Position numbers: made by a program. Source: Escherichia coli (GTDB taxonomy: Bacteria > Pseudomonadota > Gammaproteobacteria > Enterobacterales > Enterobacteriaceae). From it: 64,000 bases of DNA. Positions 9,001 through 18,000 of this stretch are shown here, one piece after another. The stretch is taken from the NCBI RefSeq assembly GCF_016026235.1, contig NZ_CP065613.1; one strand, given 5' to 3'. Position 1 is the first letter of the stretch. Each line of letters begins with the position of its first letter.

Positions 9001-12000
9001 CCTGTAATCGCTGCTCTGCACTGCCCTGCGGAAGTGCATGTAATCGATTCAAAACCGCGTCACGCAGCTGACTGGTGATATCGCGCATGGTTGCTTCCAG
9101 CAGACCATTTTTGTCCCTGAAATAGTGGCTGATGATCCCCGTAGAAACGCCTGCACGGCGGGCGATCTGCGCGATCGTTGCATCGTGCATGCCCACTTCA
9201 TTTATTGCTTCCAGTGTGGCGTCGATCAGTTGTCTGCGCCGGATCGACTGCATCCCCAATTTGGGCATTTTCGCACTCCATTCATCAGCGTTGTTTATCT
9301 ATTAAAGCGGTTATTGATTGGACGTTCAATATAAAATGTGTCTTAATTGTTACGAATTTGATTTTAAATGGTAACAATAACAGTGGGGATACTGGATGAC
9401 AGACCTTTCACACAGCAGGGAAAAGGACAAAATCAATCCGGTGGTGTTTTACACCTCCGCCGGACTGATTTTGTTGTTTTCCCTGACAACGATCCTGTTT
9501 CGCGACTTCTCGGCCCTGTGGATTGGCCGCACGCTGGACTGGGTTTCTAAAACCTTCGGTTGGTACTATCTGCTGGCGGCAACGCTCTATATTGTCTTTG
9601 TGGTCTGTATCGCTTGTTCGCGTTTTGGTTCGGTGAAGCTCGGGCCAGAACAATCCAAACCGGAATTCAGCCTGCTGAGTTGGGCGGCGATGCTGTTTGC
9701 TGCCGGGATCGGTATCGATCTGATGTTCTTTTCCGTAGCCGAACCGGTAACGCAGTATATGCAGCCGCCGGAAGGCGCGGGACAGACGATTGAGGCCGCG
9801 CGTCAGGCGATGGTCTGGACGCTGTTTCACTACGGCTTAACCGGCTGGTCGATGTATGCGCTGATGGGCATGGCGCTCGGATACTTTAGCTATCGTTATA
9901 ATTTGCCGCTCACCATCCGCTCGGCGCTGTACCCGATCTTCGGTAAACGGATTAACGGGCCGATAGGTCACTCAGTGGATATTGCAGCGGTGATCGGCAC
10001 TATCTTCGGTATTGCCACTACGCTCGGTATCGGTGTGGTGCAGCTTAACTATGGCTTGAGCGTACTGTTTGATATTCCCGATTCGATGGCGGCAAAAGCG
10101 GCACTGATCGCCTTGTCGGTGATAATCGCCACTATCTCGGTGACATCCGGTGTCGATAAGGGCATTCGCGTGTTATCGGAGCTTAATGTCGCGCTGGCGC
10201 TGGGATTGATCCTGTTCGTGTTGTTTATGGGCGACACTTCGTTCCTGCTTAATGCACTGGTGCTGAATGTTGGCGACTATGTGAATCGCTTTATGGGCAT
10301 GACGCTCAACAGTTTTGCCTTCGACCGCCCGGTTGAGTGGATGAATAACTGGACGCTCTTCTTCTGGGCATGGTGGGTGGCATGGTCGCCGTTTGTCGGC
10401 TTGTTCCTGGCGCGTATCTCGCGTGGGCGTACCATTCGCCAGTTCGTGCTGGGCACGTTGATTATTCCGTTTACCTTCACGCTGTTATGGCTCTCGGTGT
10501 TCGGCAATAGCGCGCTGTATGAAATCATCCACGGCGGCGCGGCATTTGCCGAGGAAGCGATGGTCCATCCGGAGCGCGGCTTCTACAGCCTGCTGGCGCA
10601 GTATCCGGCGTTTACCTTTAGCGCCTCCGTCGCCACCATTACTGGCCTGCTGTTTTATGTGACCTCGGCGGACTCCGGGGCGCTGGTGCTGGGGAATTTC
10701 ACCTCGCAGCTTAAAGATATCAACAGCGACGCCCCCGGCTGGCTGCGCGTCTTCTGGTCGGTGGCGATTGGCCTGCTGACGCTCGGCATGCTGATGACCA
10801 ACGGGATATCCGCGCTGCAAAACACCACGGTGATTATGGGGCTGCCGTTCAGCTTTGTGATCTTCTTCGTGATGGCGGGGTTGTATAAATCTCTGAAGGT
10901 AGAAGATTACCGCCGTGAAAGTGCCAACCGCGATACCGCACCGCGACCGCTGGGGCTTCAGGATCGCCTGAGCTGGAAAAAACGTCTCTCGCGCCTGATG
11001 AATTATCCGGGCACGCGTTACACTAAACAGATGATGGAGACGGTCTGTTACTCGGCAATGGAAGAAGTGGCGCAGGAGTTGCGGTTGCGCGGCGCGTACG
11101 TGGAGCTAAAAAGCCTGCCGCCGGAAGAGGGACAACAGTTGGGGCATCTGGATTTGTTGGTGCATATGGGCGAAGAGCAAAACTTTGTCTATCAGATTTG
11201 GCCGCAGCAATATTCGGTGCCGGGCTTTACCTACCGCGCACGTAGCGGTAAATCGACTTACTACCGGCTGGAAACTTTCCTGTTAGAAGGCAGCCAGGGC
11301 AACGACCTGATGGACTACAGCAAAGAGCAGGTGATCACCGATATTCTTGACCAGTACGAGCGGCACCTTAACTTTATTCATCTCCATCGTGAAGCGCCGG
11401 GCCATAGCGTGATGTTCCCGGACGCGTGATTGTTATTGCATAAAACCGCGCCATGTTTGCATATGGCGCAGGAATCATTGACTCGCTGTAAAAAATTATG
11501 CATATATTATATATGATTGTCATGTCATATCCTGAAATTCCTCTTGTATCACTTCATGATTTTATATTTTATTAATTAACGATTTTATTTTGTATTAGCT
11601 GAATGGATTCAGTCCTATAGGGTTATATATTTATTAATAAGACGATTCTTATATTTGGATACCTAATAAGAGTTACCACTTTTACCGGCTGTATATTAAA
11701 TGTATTTCTCCTGCTTTTGTTTATATTTTGAGTTGATTTGAGTTCCTGGATACATATAATGCGCAGGTATTAGAGACTGGTGGGGAATGTAATGATAAAG
11801 TTAAGAGTGTTAACTTAAAATAAGTTTTCAGTAGTAACTTGCTATTTTATTACCCTCTGAACTACATACTCAGATATGTGGTTGCCAATGCTATGCAAAA
11901 TTTTTGAATTTTTATATGCGATGAACAGTAACCGGAATGGCATTTAATGCGTTGCTGTTTATGCAATCTTGGTTTTATTTGGATGTATTGCTGGAGATTG

Positions 12001-15000: not shown

Positions 15001-18000
15001 ATGACTTGCGACCGGAGGCGAGTAGCTACATTGCGAACCTTGCAGCAGCGAATACCATATTCACCACGCGTCTGCATGAGCGTCTGGGTAATACGTACTA
15101 TACCGACATGGTGACGGGTGAGCAGAAACAAACCACTATGTGGATGCGCCATGAAGGTGGTCATAATAAATGGCGTGATGGCAGCGGCCAGCTGAAAACC
15201 CAAAGCAATCGCTATGTTCTGCAACTGGGAGGCGATGTCGCGCAGTGGAGCCAAAACGGCAGCGACAGCTGGCATGTTGGGGTCATGGCGGGATATGGCA
15301 ACAGCGACAGCAAAACCATTTCCTCGCGAACCGGTTATCGTGCAAAAGCGAGTGTGAACGGATATAGCACCGGCCTCTATGCCACCTGGTATGCCGATGA
15401 CGAGTCGCGTAATGGCGCGTATCTCGACAGTTGGGCGCAGTACAGCTGGTTTGATAACACAGTGAAAGGGGATGACTTACAAAGTGAATCCTATAAATCA
15501 AAAGGATTTACCGCTTCACTGGAAGCTGGATACAAACACAAATTAGCTGAATTTAATGGCAGCCAGGGAACGCGTAATGAATGGTATGTTCAGCCGCAAG
15601 CACAGGTTACCTGGATGGGAGTCAAAGCCGATAAGCACCGCGAAAGCAACGGAACCCTCGTTCATAGCAACGGTGATGGCAATGTTCAAACCCGACTTGG
15701 CGTAAAAACCTGGCTGAAGAGCCACCATAAAATGGATGACGGTAAATCCCGCGAGTTCCAGCCGTTTGTAGAAGTGAACTGGCTGCATAACAGTAAGGAT
15801 TTCAGCACCAGTATGGATGGCGTGTCCGTCACTCAGGATGGAGCCCGAAATATTGCTGAGATAAAAACCGGGGTGGAAGGACAGCTAAATGCCAACCTGA
15901 ATGTCTGGGGGAATGTGGGCGTTCAGGTTGCCGATAGGGGATATAATGACACCTCTGCAATGGTTGGCATTAAGTGGCAATTCTGATCTGAATAATGAGT
16001 AAAAGGAGAGAGAGCCGAACGGGAGATAATTCGGCTCTCTGTGTCATTTTCTTGCAGCCAGCTTTATCAGTCAGAGTGAAGACTCGCAGATTTAGCTGGC
16101 GCACAAGATTTAATCAAGGTGTGTTCAATGGCTTCGCATGATTTGAGTGTTTTTTTGGAAGAGTTCGGGGCAACGGTGAATTTGACGTTGCCTGGTATCG
16201 TGTCCGAAAAAGAACGGCTTTTACTCAAGCTGCTAATGGAGGGAATGTCGGTTACAGAAATCTCACAGTACAGAAATCGCAGTGCAAAGACAATTTCACA
16301 TCAAAAGAAGCAGCTGTATGAAAAACTAGGCATCCAGAGTGATATTACCTTCTGGCGGGATATCTTTTTTCAATATCATCCGCAAGTCATCAGTGGCACG
16401 GGAAATAAAAATAATTTTTATATCCCTGATAACCGTTGTCACCATATCGTCACGCCTGAAGCCATCAGTCTGGCGTTGGAAAACCACGAATTCAAACCGT
16501 GGATCCAACCGGTTTTCTGCGCGCAGACTGGGGTACTGACGGGCTGTGAGGTACTTGTCCGCTGGGAACATCCACAAACGGGAATTATCCCACCGGATCA
16601 GTTTATTCCTCTGGCGGAGTCATCCGGTCTTATTGTCATAATGACCCGCCAACTGATGAAACAGACTGCGGATATTCTGATGCCGGTAAAACATTTGCTG
16701 CCGGACAATTTCCATATTGGCATCAACGTCTCGGCGGGTTGTTTTTTGGCAGCGGGATTTGAAAAAGAGTGTCTGAACCTGGTTAAGAAATTAGGTAACG
16801 ATAAAATCAAGCTGGTTCTCGAGCTAACGGAACGTAACCCTATTCCGGTAACGCCAGAAGCCAGAGCGATATTTGACAGCCTTCATCAGCACAACATTAC
16901 CTTTGCGCTGGATGACTTTGGTACGGGTTATGCGACCTATCGTTACTTGCAGGCGTTCCCGGTCGATTTTATTAAGATCGATAAGTCATTTGTGCAAATG
17001 GCGAGTGTCGACGAAATCTCCGGTCATATTGTGGACAATATTGTCGAACTAGCGCGTAAGCCTGGTCTGAGTATCGTGGCGGAAGGGGTAGAAACCCAGG
17101 AGCAGGCGGATTTAATGATCGGTAAAGGCGTTCACTTTTTGCAGGGCTATTTGTACTCTCCGCCAGTACCGGGTAATAAATTTATCTCTGAATGGGTAAT
17201 GAAAGCAGGTGGTTGATGTAAACCGCTATTCACAGCGCATCGGGAGGTTGGCAGCGATTAATTCTCCCGATGCAGTAAATCCTGATAGATCCCCGTTAAT
17301 ATGCCATTTGGCGCAAATTGTTTTTTAATCCACTGCGTCACCTGACCCGTAGCAGAATGCTGAGTCGCCAGTAACATGCGCGAATCCTGGCGCGGATTAT
17401 GGATTTGTCGGGTAACCAGCAGGGATTGCGTCATTGCCTCACGGACCATGTAATCCGGCAAAAAACCAATTCCTTCACCTAAAATCTGGCACTGACATTT
17501 GGTGTTGAAATCTGGCACCAGAATTGACTCCTGCCCGTGCAGCAACCAGCCCACTTTTTTATTAATCGTATGCGCGGTGTCCTCCACCATAATATTAGGG
17601 TAGAGACGCAGTTGGCTTTCGGCGATGGGTTCCGGCACAAAGGCTAACGGGTGATCCGGGGCGATAGCAAAAGCCCAGCGAATCGCGCCAATTTCAGTGT
17701 AATCAATACCGCCGCCGTCCAGTAGTGTATCGGGTGCGCCGATGGCGATATTGGCCTGATTATTAATAATCGCATCCCAGACGCCGTTATACACTTCGGT
17801 GGTGACGGTAATCTGGCAGGTAGGAAACTGCTTTTTCAGCACCTGTAACAAGCGTGCGGTGTGTTTGGGCGTATAAAGCAGCTGATTAATACAAATGCGC
17901 ACACGCGCTTCTATGCCCTGCGAAATAGTATCGATACTGCGTTTGATGGCGTGAAAATCATTCAGCAGGTCGGTAGCTTTGCGGAAAAAATAACGCCCGG

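What the first reader, a model, noticed from the sequence alone, without database searches (positions are those of the whole stretch)
11430..16052. AIDA-I/EhaA-type autotransporter inserted between betT and pdeL
A 1327-aa autotransporter with the characteristic extended signal peptide, Pro/Asn-rich linker and beta-barrel occupies a site that I recall being a short intergenic spacer in K-12. It is preceded by about 570 bp of very AT-rich leader (11430-12002) and followed by a clean terminator. This marks the strain as non-K-12 and is a likely biofilm or adhesion factor.
Basis: partly seen in the sequence, partly recalled or inferred. Interest (0 to 1): 0.4.

Follow-up and report, generated by a model that had tools for sequence, protein, structure and literature searches.

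The report
Known EhaA adhesin in two-form locus
The gene is EhaA, an already described E. coli surface adhesin. It is not a recent insertion but one of two old alternative versions of the betT-pdeL region, and it sits behind the control elements that drive the c-di-GMP regulator gene pdeL in K-12.

Summary
Window 12003-15986 (+) is an intact 1327-aa classical autotransporter with an ESPR signal, autochaperone, Pro/Asn linker and C-terminal beta-barrel. A 573-bp leader of 31% GC precedes it and a conserved hairpin follows.

It is EhaA itself (O-island 15, z0402). It is 97% identical to O157:H7 EhaA, lies at the same betT-pdeL locus, and is present in 1385 of 5426 complete E. coli genomes. This part is already known.

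"Inserted into a short K-12 spacer" is not right.
- K-12 has an 874-bp spacer holding the pdeL promoter.
- 820 bp of that spacer are replaced, not split, and there are no mobility signatures.
- The divergent block runs about 385 nt into pdeL (81-86% identity to K-12, then 99-100%).
- The pdeL 5' end is strictly bimodal across E. coli.
- The ehaA form also occurs in E. whittamii (intact) and E. albertii (decayed).

Three things survive in the otherwise unalignable leader: the Cra box (17/17), the pdeL P1 promoter core, and a PdeL-type palindrome.

From this I infer, without experimental test, that ehaA is transcribed from a Cra/PdeL/H-NS-type promoter and that pdeL may be read through behind it.

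The parts
9396..11429 (+). betT (choline transporter), the left conserved flank
   Evidence: Pfam BCCT, E 3e-176. It is 98-99.8% identical to K-12.
11446..11471 (+). betT terminator hairpin. Homology to K-12 ends at 11469, so this is the left edge of the variable block.
   Evidence: Hairpin. Homology break at window 11469 / K-12 L001 5537.
11470..12002 (+). ehaA-haplotype leader (30% GC). It cannot be aligned to the K-12 spacer except at three islands.
   Evidence: GC content. Outside the islands the alignment is no better than shuffles. It is 90% identical to the E. whittamii leader.
11598..11614 (+). Cra box GCTGAATGGATTCAGTC, identical to the Cra box of the K-12 pdeL promoter
   Evidence: A 17/17 exact match to L001 5873-5889, reached by 0 of 2000 shuffles. 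It is the same sequence as the 'CB CDB' EMSA oligo of bioRxiv 10.1101/2021.10.01.462762. It is invariant in all haplotypes and species that have this position, and unique in the window.
11636..11652 (+). PdeL-box-like palindrome AATAAG-N6-CTTAT. It has the same half-sites as the K-12 Cra-independent PdeL box (CIB) but sits at a different position.
   Evidence: One match in the 64-kb window against 0.01 expected. The K-12 copy at L001 5676-5692 lies inside the CIB EMSA fragment. The ehaA-type position is conserved in O157 and E. whittamii, and with one mismatch in E. albertii. The pattern was defined after I had seen both copies.
11733..11760 (+). Sigma-70 promoter TTGATT-N16-TATAAT, homologous to K-12 pdeL promoter P1
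   Evidence: Best promoter-like site in 11400-16200, matching 10 of 12 consensus positions. K-12 has TTGATC-N16-TATAAT at L001 6011-6038. The block TATTTT.AGTTGAT.TG...ATATAATGCG is invariant in 8 alleles from 5 taxa. The K-12 'P1' mutagenesis oligo keeps exactly these hexamers, and the RNAP-recruitment fragment ends just after them.
12003..15986 (+). ehaA, encoding a 1327-aa type Va autotransporter adhesin (the end coordinate includes the stop codon)
12003..12119 (+). Extended signal peptide region (ESPR, aa 1-39). Cleavage is probably after about aa 48; this is inferred.
   Evidence: Pfam PF13018, E 5.6e-10. The cleavage site was read from the sequence and not computed.
14517..14834 (+). Autochaperone domain (aa 839-944) at the C-terminal end of the passenger
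   Evidence: Pfam AC_1, E 3.8e-28. IcsA autochaperone structures 3ml3 and 5ke1 match at E 1e-28 and 2e-27.
14883..14987 (+). Pro/Asn-rich linker (aa 961-995)
   Evidence: 15 Pro and 5 Asn in 35 residues. The underlying 12/18-nt DNA repeats are at 14922-14967.
15138..15983 (+). Beta-barrel translocator (Pfam aa 1046-1305; the barrel runs to the C-terminal KWQF)
   Evidence: PF03797, E 2.3e-46. The AIDA-I beta-domain structure 4mee matches at E 2.8e-91 over aa 1001-1327. The O157 fragment aa 989-1327 folds as a heat-modifiable barrel and displays cargo (PMC3781032).
16009..16040 (+). Conserved hairpin between ehaA and pdeL: a weak or partial terminator, or an RNA 3'-end element
   Evidence: 11-12 bp stem, -20 kcal/mol. 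The stem is conserved and the loop variable in E. whittamii and E. albertii. The U-tract is offset.
16113..16512 (+). The alignable but deeply diverged right part of the haplotype block: the pdeL ribosome-binding site plus codons 1 to about 128 (N-terminal tail, HTH domain, linker)
   Evidence: 81-86% identical to K-12, then 99-100% from 16513 onward. It falls into two classes that follow ehaA presence rather than species. dS is 0.65 here against 0.013 downstream. The distribution over 5426 genomes is bimodal.
16128..17216 (+). pdeL (LuxR-type HTH + EAL c-di-GMP phosphodiesterase/transcription factor)
   Evidence: Pfam GerE + EAL. Same coordinates as the RefSeq annotation in L002 and L003.

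Best explanation
The ORF at 12003-15986 is ehaA, the single gene of O-island 15 of E. coli O157:H7. It encodes a classical (type Va) autotransporter adhesin.

How the protein works. This follows from established knowledge of the family together with the domains found here.
- The ESPR-type signal peptide takes the protein through Sec.
- The C-terminal 12-stranded barrel inserts into the outer membrane via BAM.
- The passenger is threaded out and folds from its autochaperone end.
- It stays on the cell surface, where the O157 orthologue mediates autoaggregation, biofilm formation and adhesion to bovine rectal epithelial cells.

What the locus is. It is not a recent insertion but one of two old, mutually exclusive haplotypes of the betT-pdeL interval.
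- The ehaA form consists of the leader, ehaA, a hairpin and an ehaA-class pdeL 5' end. It is found in about 26% of complete E. coli genomes.
- The K-12 form consists of the 874-bp spacer with yahV and a K-12-class pdeL 5' end. It is found in about 67-69%.
- Both forms occur in more than one Escherichia species.

Regulation. Both forms keep the same control module: a Cra box, about 157-160 bp of unrelated sequence, then the P1 promoter, plus one PdeL palindrome. In the ehaA form this module lies in front of ehaA, 4.4 kb from pdeL. I infer three things from this.
- ehaA is transcribed from this H-NS-silenced, Cra- and PdeL-responsive promoter.
- pdeL is at least partly expressed by read-through of the weak hairpin.
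- EhaA is therefore wired into the PdeL c-di-GMP switch.

What is shown and what is inferred. The identity of the gene, the haplotype structure and the conservation of the motifs are shown. Promoter use, regulator binding and co-transcription are inferred.
For: Identity:
- RefSeq names the matching gene 'autotransporter adhesin EhaA'. 1385 of 5426 genomes hold at least 80% of the region.
- The protein is 1288/1327 identical to O157:H7 SS17 EhaA, with the same length and the same neighbours.
- All three autotransporter domains are present. It matches solved AIDA-I barrel and IcsA autochaperone structures.
- It is O-island 15 / z0402, with published adhesion phenotypes (PMC8565820). The barrel's function has been shown experimentally (PMC3781032).

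Haplotype:
- Homology to K-12 breaks at 11469 and resumes at 16113.
- The K-12-type spacer is present in 3656 genomes.
- The pdeL 5' 400 nt is 81-86% identical to K-12, and the rest of pdeL is 99-100%.
- The two pdeL 5' classes follow ehaA presence, not species. dS is 0.65 against 0.013.
- Across genomes the pdeL 5' end is at least 99% identical in 1385 records and 80-90% identical in 3761, with only 12 in between.
- E. whittamii has an intact ehaA form. E. albertii has a decayed ehaA behind the same promoter.

Regulation:
- The 17-mer Cra box and the 12-mer -10 block are collinear, at spacings of 155 and 158 nt. The 17-mer was reached by 0 of 2000 shuffles.
- These elements are invariant in 8 alleles.
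- They correspond to the experimentally used K-12 Cra box, P1 and CIB sequences.
- There is no other Cra box, PdeL palindrome or promoter-like site on the + strand between 11822 and pdeL.
- P1 is retained in E. albertii even though ehaA has decayed there.
- The leader is 31% GC, like the H-NS-bound K-12 promoter.
Against: - No transcript data were available. The transcription start, binding of Cra, PdeL or H-NS, and read-through of the hairpin are all untested for the ehaA form.
- The hairpin stem is conserved across three species. It may be an efficient terminator, which would leave pdeL with an unrecognised promoter of its own.
- The Cra-dependent PdeL box that abuts the Cra box in K-12 is not conserved (about 5 of 13 positions, read).
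- The PdeL palindrome is at a different position, and I defined its pattern after seeing both copies.
- I could not read the primary papers that map the K-12 pdeL start site. P1 is assigned from the design of published oligos.
- The dS estimates rest on 130 codons.
- The linkage between ehaA and the pdeL 5' class rests on equal counts (1385 and 1385) and on 8 inspected loci, not on a genome-by-genome table.
Confidence: 0.8

Rival explanations
1. This is the first reader's reading: a recently acquired genomic islet. On this view the ehaA cassette was inserted by horizontal transfer into a K-12-like betT-pdeL spacer.
For: - The gene is absent from K-12 and is catalogued as an 'O island'.
- The leader is AT-rich at 31% GC.
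- Its presence in E. coli is patchy, at about 26% of genomes.
Against: - No K-12 spacer sequence flanks the segment. 820 bp are replaced rather than interrupted.
- There is no integrase, IS element, tRNA gene or terminal repeat.
- The ORF's GC content (49.6%) is ordinary for E. coli.
- The divergence continues about 385 nt into pdeL.
- The same arrangement occurs in E. whittamii at species-level divergence, and as a decayed remnant in E. albertii.
Confidence: 0.07
2. ehaA and pdeL are separate transcription units. The conserved Cra/P1 module drives ehaA only, the hairpin at 16009-16040 terminates efficiently, and pdeL has its own weak or non-canonical promoter in the 3' end of ehaA or in the 141-bp spacer.
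For: - The hairpin stem is conserved in three species while the loop varies.
- The hairpin is stable, at -20 kcal/mol.
- The spacer downstream of the hairpin is well conserved.
Against: - The U-tract after the stem is offset and interrupted.
- No promoter-like site lies on the + strand between 11822 and 16200.
- No Cra box or PdeL palindrome lies near pdeL.
- P1 is kept in E. albertii after ehaA decayed, as expected if it still serves pdeL.
Confidence: 0.35
3. The shared Cra box, -10 block and palindrome are chance or convergent matches in AT-rich DNA and say nothing about common regulation.
For: - The best local alignment score of leader against K-12 spacer was reached by 1 of 300 shuffles. 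The rest of the leader aligns no better than shuffles.
- The palindrome pattern was chosen after the fact.
Against: - The 17-nt exact match was reached by 0 of 2000 shuffles, and the second block is collinear within 3 nt.
- All the elements are invariant across 8 alleles whose flanking sequence has diverged beyond alignment.
- They coincide with experimentally defined K-12 sites.
Confidence: 0.04

Closest known systems
EhaA (z0402 / ECs0362, O-island 15) of E. coli O157:H7
   Same: - 97% protein identity over the full 1327 aa.
- Same betT-ehaA-pdeL locus and the same leader, at 97% DNA identity.
- Same domain order.
   Different: There are 39 substitutions, concentrated in the N-terminal tip of the passenger (aa 46-260). 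It is an allele, not a new protein.
Group 8 autotransporter adhesins (MisL, ShdA, IcsA, YfaL/EhaC, UpaE, EhaJ, AatA)
   Same: - The best family-level matches are to the ECSE_1600, MisL, ShdA and YfaL models and to IcsA autochaperone structures.
- A published phylogeny puts EhaA in this group (PMC9289746).
   Different: - All these scores are far below each family's own cut-off and cover mainly aa 750-1327.
- The N-terminal 700 residues of the passenger match no Pfam family.
AIDA-I / Ag43 / TibA self-associating autotransporters
   Same: - The translocator domain is homologous: 4mee at E 2.8e-91, and NF033176 matches aa 1001-1327.
- The O157 orthologue also causes autoaggregation.
   Different: - The AIDA-I model scores 338 bits against a cut-off of 1200.
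- No AIDA-type repeats were found in the passenger.
- There is no adjacent glycosyltransferase gene.
K-12 pdeL promoter: Cra box, PdeL boxes CDB and CIB, H-NS silencing, promoter P1 (bioRxiv 10.1101/2021.10.01.462762)
   Same: - Identical 17-nt Cra box.
- The same -35/-10 core, at the same distance (157 against 160 nt).
- One AATAAG-N6-CTTAT palindrome.
- AT-rich context.

   Different: - Here the first gene downstream is ehaA, not pdeL.
- The palindrome lies 22 nt downstream of the Cra box rather than about 180 nt upstream of it.
- The K-12 CDB sequence is not conserved.
- All intervening sequence is unrelated.

Membership tests
Classical (type Va) autotransporter | N-terminal Sec signal peptide (here the extended ESPR type) | tested here: met
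   PF13018, aa 1-39, E 5.6e-10, 40 bits against a cut-off of 25.
Classical (type Va) autotransporter | C-terminal beta-barrel translocator ending in an aromatic residue | tested here: met
   PF03797, aa 1046-1305, E 2.3e-46. TIGR01414, E 4e-123. 4mee, E 2.8e-91. The protein ends in KWQF.
Classical (type Va) autotransporter | Autochaperone at the passenger C-terminus and a beta-helical passenger | tested here: inconclusive
   The autochaperone is met: PF18883 at E 3.8e-28, and aa 734-966 match solved IcsA passenger/autochaperone structures. The fold of aa 49-733 was not predicted; the only hit there is a sub-threshold PATR match.
Classical (type Va) autotransporter | Surface exposure of the passenger | not testable with these tools
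   Shown for the O157 orthologue and for its aa 989-1327 fragment. That fragment differs at 3 positions from the protein here.
EhaA orthologue (O-island 15) | Near-identity over the full length to O157:H7 EhaA | tested here: met
   1288/1327 identical, with no gaps.
EhaA orthologue (O-island 15) | Same chromosomal position, betT-ehaA-pdeL | tested here: met
EhaA orthologue (O-island 15) | Adhesion, aggregation and biofilm phenotype | not testable with these tools
   Literature on the O157 allele only.
AIDA-I / SAAT subgroup | Full-length match to the AIDA-I model | tested here: not met
   NF033176 scores 337.7 bits against a cut-off of 1200 and matches only aa 1001-1327.
AIDA-I / SAAT subgroup | Imperfect ~19-aa AIDA-type repeats in the passenger | tested here: not met
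   No AIDA repeat family was found, even at E <= 1.
AIDA-I / SAAT subgroup | Adjacent heptosyltransferase gene (aah/tibC type) | tested here: not met
   There is no ORF of 60 aa or more between betT and ehaA or between ehaA and pdeL.
Mobile genomic island | Integrase or IS element, tRNA target, flanking direct repeats | tested here: not met
   No such ORFs. No terminal repeats. Replacement rather than insertion.
Cra/PdeL-controlled pdeL P1 promoter module | Cra box | tested here: met
   17/17 identical to the K-12 site used in EMSA.
Cra/PdeL-controlled pdeL P1 promoter module | P1 -35/-10 core at a conserved distance from the Cra box | tested here: met
   TTGATT-N16-TATAAT. The distance is 157 nt here and 158-160 nt in the other alleles.
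Cra/PdeL-controlled pdeL P1 promoter module | PdeL boxes (CIB palindrome; CDB next to the Cra box) | tested here: inconclusive
   One CIB-like palindrome is present but relocated. The CDB sequence is not conserved.
Cra/PdeL-controlled pdeL P1 promoter module | Binding by Cra, PdeL and H-NS, and c-di-GMP-dependent activity | not testable with these tools
   Known only for K-12.

The most novel reading that the evidence does not exclude
In about a quarter of E. coli, and in E. whittamii, the adhesin gene ehaA is the promoter-proximal gene of the PdeL autoregulatory unit. It would be switched on with pdeL by Cra and PdeL when c-di-GMP is low, possibly bimodally. The ehaA and K-12 forms of this locus, each with its own PdeL N-terminus, would be a long-lived polymorphism shared among Escherichia species.
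Probability: 0.4. Interest if true: 0.55.

Novelty: already known. Interest (0 to 1): 0.3.

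Why it matters
The gene itself adds nothing new. EhaA is a described adhesin and a routine marker in STEC genome surveys.

What may matter is the context. The PdeL switch, a model for how graded c-di-GMP levels become on/off states, has been dissected only in K-12. K-12 carries the form of the locus that lacks ehaA.

In the other form, the same Cra box and P1 promoter sit in front of a 4-kb adhesin gene, and PdeL has a different N-terminal tail and linker. If ehaA and pdeL share that promoter, a biofilm and adhesion factor would be co-expressed with an enzyme that lowers c-di-GMP. That is counter-intuitive and testable.

I found no paper in the held library that links ehaA with pdeL regulation or with Cra.

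Tried and rejected
- **K-12 spacer as a decayed ehaA.** tblastn of EhaA against the K-12, E1V33 and SCPM spacers gave nothing below E 0.05, whereas the E. albertii remnant scored 1e-62.
- **Homology outside the islands.** Outside the conserved islands, leader against K-12 spacer is no better than shuffles. This covers the regions upstream of the Cra box, between the Cra box and the promoter, downstream of the promoter, and the ehaA-pdeL spacer.
- **Mobile-element signatures.** No terminal direct or inverted repeats were found.
- **A known RNA element in the leader or spacer.** There was no Rfam match at E <= 1. The 254-nt 5' UTR does not fold better than shuffles (z -1.7).
- **Hairpin energy.** The energy z-scores were not significant on short windows. 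I rely instead on the stem conservation seen.
- **Literature.** Searches for ehaA+pdeL, ehaA+Cra, ehaA+H-NS and pdeL+autotransporter returned nothing on ehaA regulation. The ehaA+yahA search was swamped by cardiology DOIs.
- **Primary papers.** Shimada 2011, Reinders 2016 and Yilmaz 2020 are not held, so I could not read the mapped K-12 pdeL start site.
- **Structure prediction.** I did not predict the structure of the N-terminal passenger. It would not change any conclusion.

Full report
**1. The observation**

The region holds one long ORF on the + strand, 11937-15986. The ATG at 12003 is preceded by GGAG and opens with MNKIYRLKWN.

- Pfam finds the three hallmarks of a classical autotransporter:
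  - extended signal peptide region, aa 1-39, E 5.6e-10
  - type 1 autochaperone, aa 839-944, E 3.8e-28
  - beta-domain, aa 1046-1305, E 2.3e-46
- The linker at aa 961-995 contains 15 Pro and 5 Asn.
- The 573 bp between the betT stop codon and the ehaA start are 31.4% GC, against 49.6% for the ORF.
- The neighbours are BetT (9396-11429) and PdeL (16128-17216).

The "clean terminator" is a real hairpin at 16009-16040 with an 11-12 bp stem. Its + strand tail is GUGUCAUUUUCUU, so the U-run is offset and interrupted.

**2. What the gene is**

A megablast of 11430-16052 against 5426 complete E. coli genomes finds the region in 1385 genomes at 80% coverage or more. In almost all of the listed records it is annotated "autotransporter adhesin EhaA". 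Identity is 99.9% to strain FDAARGOS_943 and 97.0% to O157:H7 strains.

The protein is 1288/1327 identical to O157:H7 SS17 EhaA, without gaps. The differences are concentrated in aa 46-260. In O157 the gene lies between betT and pdeL, exactly as here.

This is O-island 15 (z0402). The published findings are:
- surface location, cell aggregation, biofilm formation and adhesion to bovine terminal-rectum cells on overexpression
- reduced adherence of a deletion mutant in pig ileal loops (PMC8565820)
- about 9-fold induction in pig loops with attaching-effacing lesions (PMC4474639)
- residues 989-1327 forming a heat-modifiable outer-membrane barrel that displays cargo (PMC3781032)

At the family level, the translocator is homologous to AIDA-I (4mee, E 2.8e-91). 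The end of the passenger is homologous to the IcsA autochaperone (3ml3 and 5ke1). The AIDA-I model is far below its cut-off, at 338 bits against 1200, and matches only aa 1001-1327. No AIDA repeats are detected. A published phylogeny groups EhaA with MisL, ShdA, IcsA, YfaL and UpaE (PMC9289746).

**3. Insertion or something else**

In K-12 MG1655 the betT-pdeL interval is 874 bp and carries yahV. Homology between the window and K-12 stops at 11469, right after the betT terminator hairpin. It resumes at 16113, 15 nt before the pdeL ATG. So 4643 bp here stand in place of 820 bp in K-12, and none of those 820 bp flank ehaA. The K-12-type spacer is present in 3656 genomes. There are no IS elements, integrases or terminal repeats.

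The right edge is not really at 16113.
- Identity to K-12 is 85.5% for 16113-16312 and 81.0% for 16313-16512, then 99-100% from 16513 to 17912.
- Across eight pdeL genes, nt 1-390 fall into two classes that are 81-83% identical to each other. One class contains the window, O157, E. whittamii and E. albertii. The other contains K-12, a B2 strain, Escherichia sp. E1V33 and strain SCPM-O-B-8794.
- By contrast, nt 391-1089 follow species relationships.
- Synonymous divergence between the window and K-12 is 0.65 in codons 1-130 and 0.013 in codons 131-362.
- Over all complete genomes the pdeL 5' 400 nt is at least 99% identical in 1385 records and 80-90% identical in 3761, with only 12 in between.
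- The HTH core of PdeL (aa 25-81) is almost invariant between the classes. The class-specific residues lie in aa 2-24 and 82-104.

A scan of one genome per bacterial species with PdeL as the query found orthologues only in Escherichia.
- E. whittamii has the whole ehaA form at about 90% DNA identity, and its EhaA is 91% identical.
- The E. albertii type strain has pieces of ehaA upstream of pdeL. These correspond to aa 351-399, 1039-1116 and 1214-1327, at up to 82% identity and E 1e-62.
- Two cryptic-clade genomes have the K-12 form.
- Shigella sonnei also carries betT-ehaA-pdeL (PMC12795559).
- The ehaA-class pdeL 5' end of E. albertii is closer to that of E. coli (dS 0.46) than the rest of the gene is (dS 1.33). 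This suggests exchange between species.

I conclude that this is an old two-form locus. Which form is ancestral cannot be decided from these data.

**4. What the leader contains**

Leader and K-12 spacer cannot be aligned in general, but they share three things.
- A 17-nt exact match, GCTGAATGGATTCAGTC (window 11598-11614, K-12 L001 5873-5889).
- A 12-nt exact match, CATATAATGCGC (window 11753-11764, L001 6031-6042), collinear with the first within 3 nt. No shuffle out of 2000 gave a 17-mer.
- One palindrome each, AATAAG-N6-CTTAT. It is unique in the 64-kb window, with 0.01 expected.

These correspond to the experimentally studied elements of the K-12 pdeL promoter (bioRxiv 10.1101/2021.10.01.462762).
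- The 17-mer is the Cra box of the "CB CDB" EMSA probe.
- The palindrome lies in the CIB (Cra-independent PdeL box) probe.
- The -10 block is the end of the fragment used to show Cra/PdeL-assisted recruitment of RNA polymerase.
- The "P1" mutant oligo scrambles the flanks but keeps TTGATC and ATATAATGCG.

TTGATT-N16-TATAAT at 11733-11760 is the best promoter-like site in 11400-16200, and its K-12 counterpart scores the same. In an alignment of eight alleles from five taxa, the Cra box and the block TATTTT.AGTTGAT.TG...ATATAATGCG are invariant while everything between them is haplotype-specific. The distance from the Cra box to the -10 element is 157-160 nt in all of them.

There are differences.
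- The palindrome is 22 nt downstream of the Cra box in the ehaA form and about 180 nt upstream of it in the K-12 form.
- The K-12 Cra-dependent PdeL box is not conserved.

**5. How it most likely works**

The protein acts as a surface adhesin of the classical autotransporter type. This rests on the domains found here and on the literature for the 97% identical orthologue.

For expression, I infer that ehaA is transcribed from the P1-type promoter, starting near 11767 and giving a 5' UTR of about 235 nt. This promoter is silenced by H-NS on the AT-rich leader and activated by Cra and PdeL.

All recognisable pdeL control elements lie upstream of ehaA, and none lies between ehaA and pdeL. The hairpin has a poor U-tract. 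E. albertii keeps P1 although its ehaA has decayed. For these reasons I consider partial read-through into pdeL more likely than not, at about 0.55-0.6. The main rival is that the conserved hairpin terminates efficiently and pdeL has its own unrecognised promoter. None of this was tested at the RNA or protein level.

**6. Novelty and verdict**

The finding as written is an already known gene at its known locus, so it is of low interest in itself. The haplotype structure that reaches into pdeL, and the shared Cra/P1 module in front of ehaA, were not found in the papers I could search. That library is incomplete, and I could not read the primary pdeL promoter papers.

Overall interest is 0.3. 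The regulatory reading would deserve about 0.55 if confirmed.

Noticed in passing
window 11900-12002: The last ~100 nt of the ehaA 5' UTR are almost invariant between E. coli and E. whittamii, while the rest of the leader differs by 10-15%. This stretch includes an in-frame upstream ATG at 11937 that would add 22 codons. The cause is unknown; it could be a translation-initiation structure, a small leader peptide or a regulatory site.
   Followed up: partly
window 16128-16512 (pdeL codons 1-128): RefSeq names the ehaA-linked PdeL only 'EAL domain-containing protein', while the K-12 class gets the full PdeL name. About a quarter of E. coli PdeL proteins are therefore under-annotated because of their divergent N-terminus.
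   Followed up: partly
L008 (1-5101) and L009 (1-385): Public assemblies labelled 'Collinsella sp.' MAG and 'Stappia sp. BW2' contain E. coli ehaA-pdeL DNA at 98.7-100% identity. This is most likely contamination of those assemblies.
   Followed up: no
L004 5260-5325 (E. whittamii): Upstream of the ehaA leader, only the last 26 nt of betT and its terminator are left. The bet genes are not there in this species' representative genome.
   Followed up: no
window 7470-9069 and 17913-19512: Identity to K-12 is mosaic in the flanks. betB/betI are 96-98.5% identical, betT is 98-99.8%, the 3' part of pdeL and most of yahB are 99-100%, and yahC-yahD are 93-97%. This indicates several recombination tracts around the locus.
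   Followed up: no
L001 5803-5877 (K-12 yahV) against window 11470-11597: The small K-12 gene yahV ends inside the Cra box (L001 5873-5889). The ehaA form has no recognisable counterpart upstream of its Cra box.
   Followed up: no
L001 6052-6060 (K-12): K-12 has a second copy of the Cra half-site, TGAATGGAT, just downstream of the P1 -10 element. It is absent from the ehaA form.
   Followed up: no
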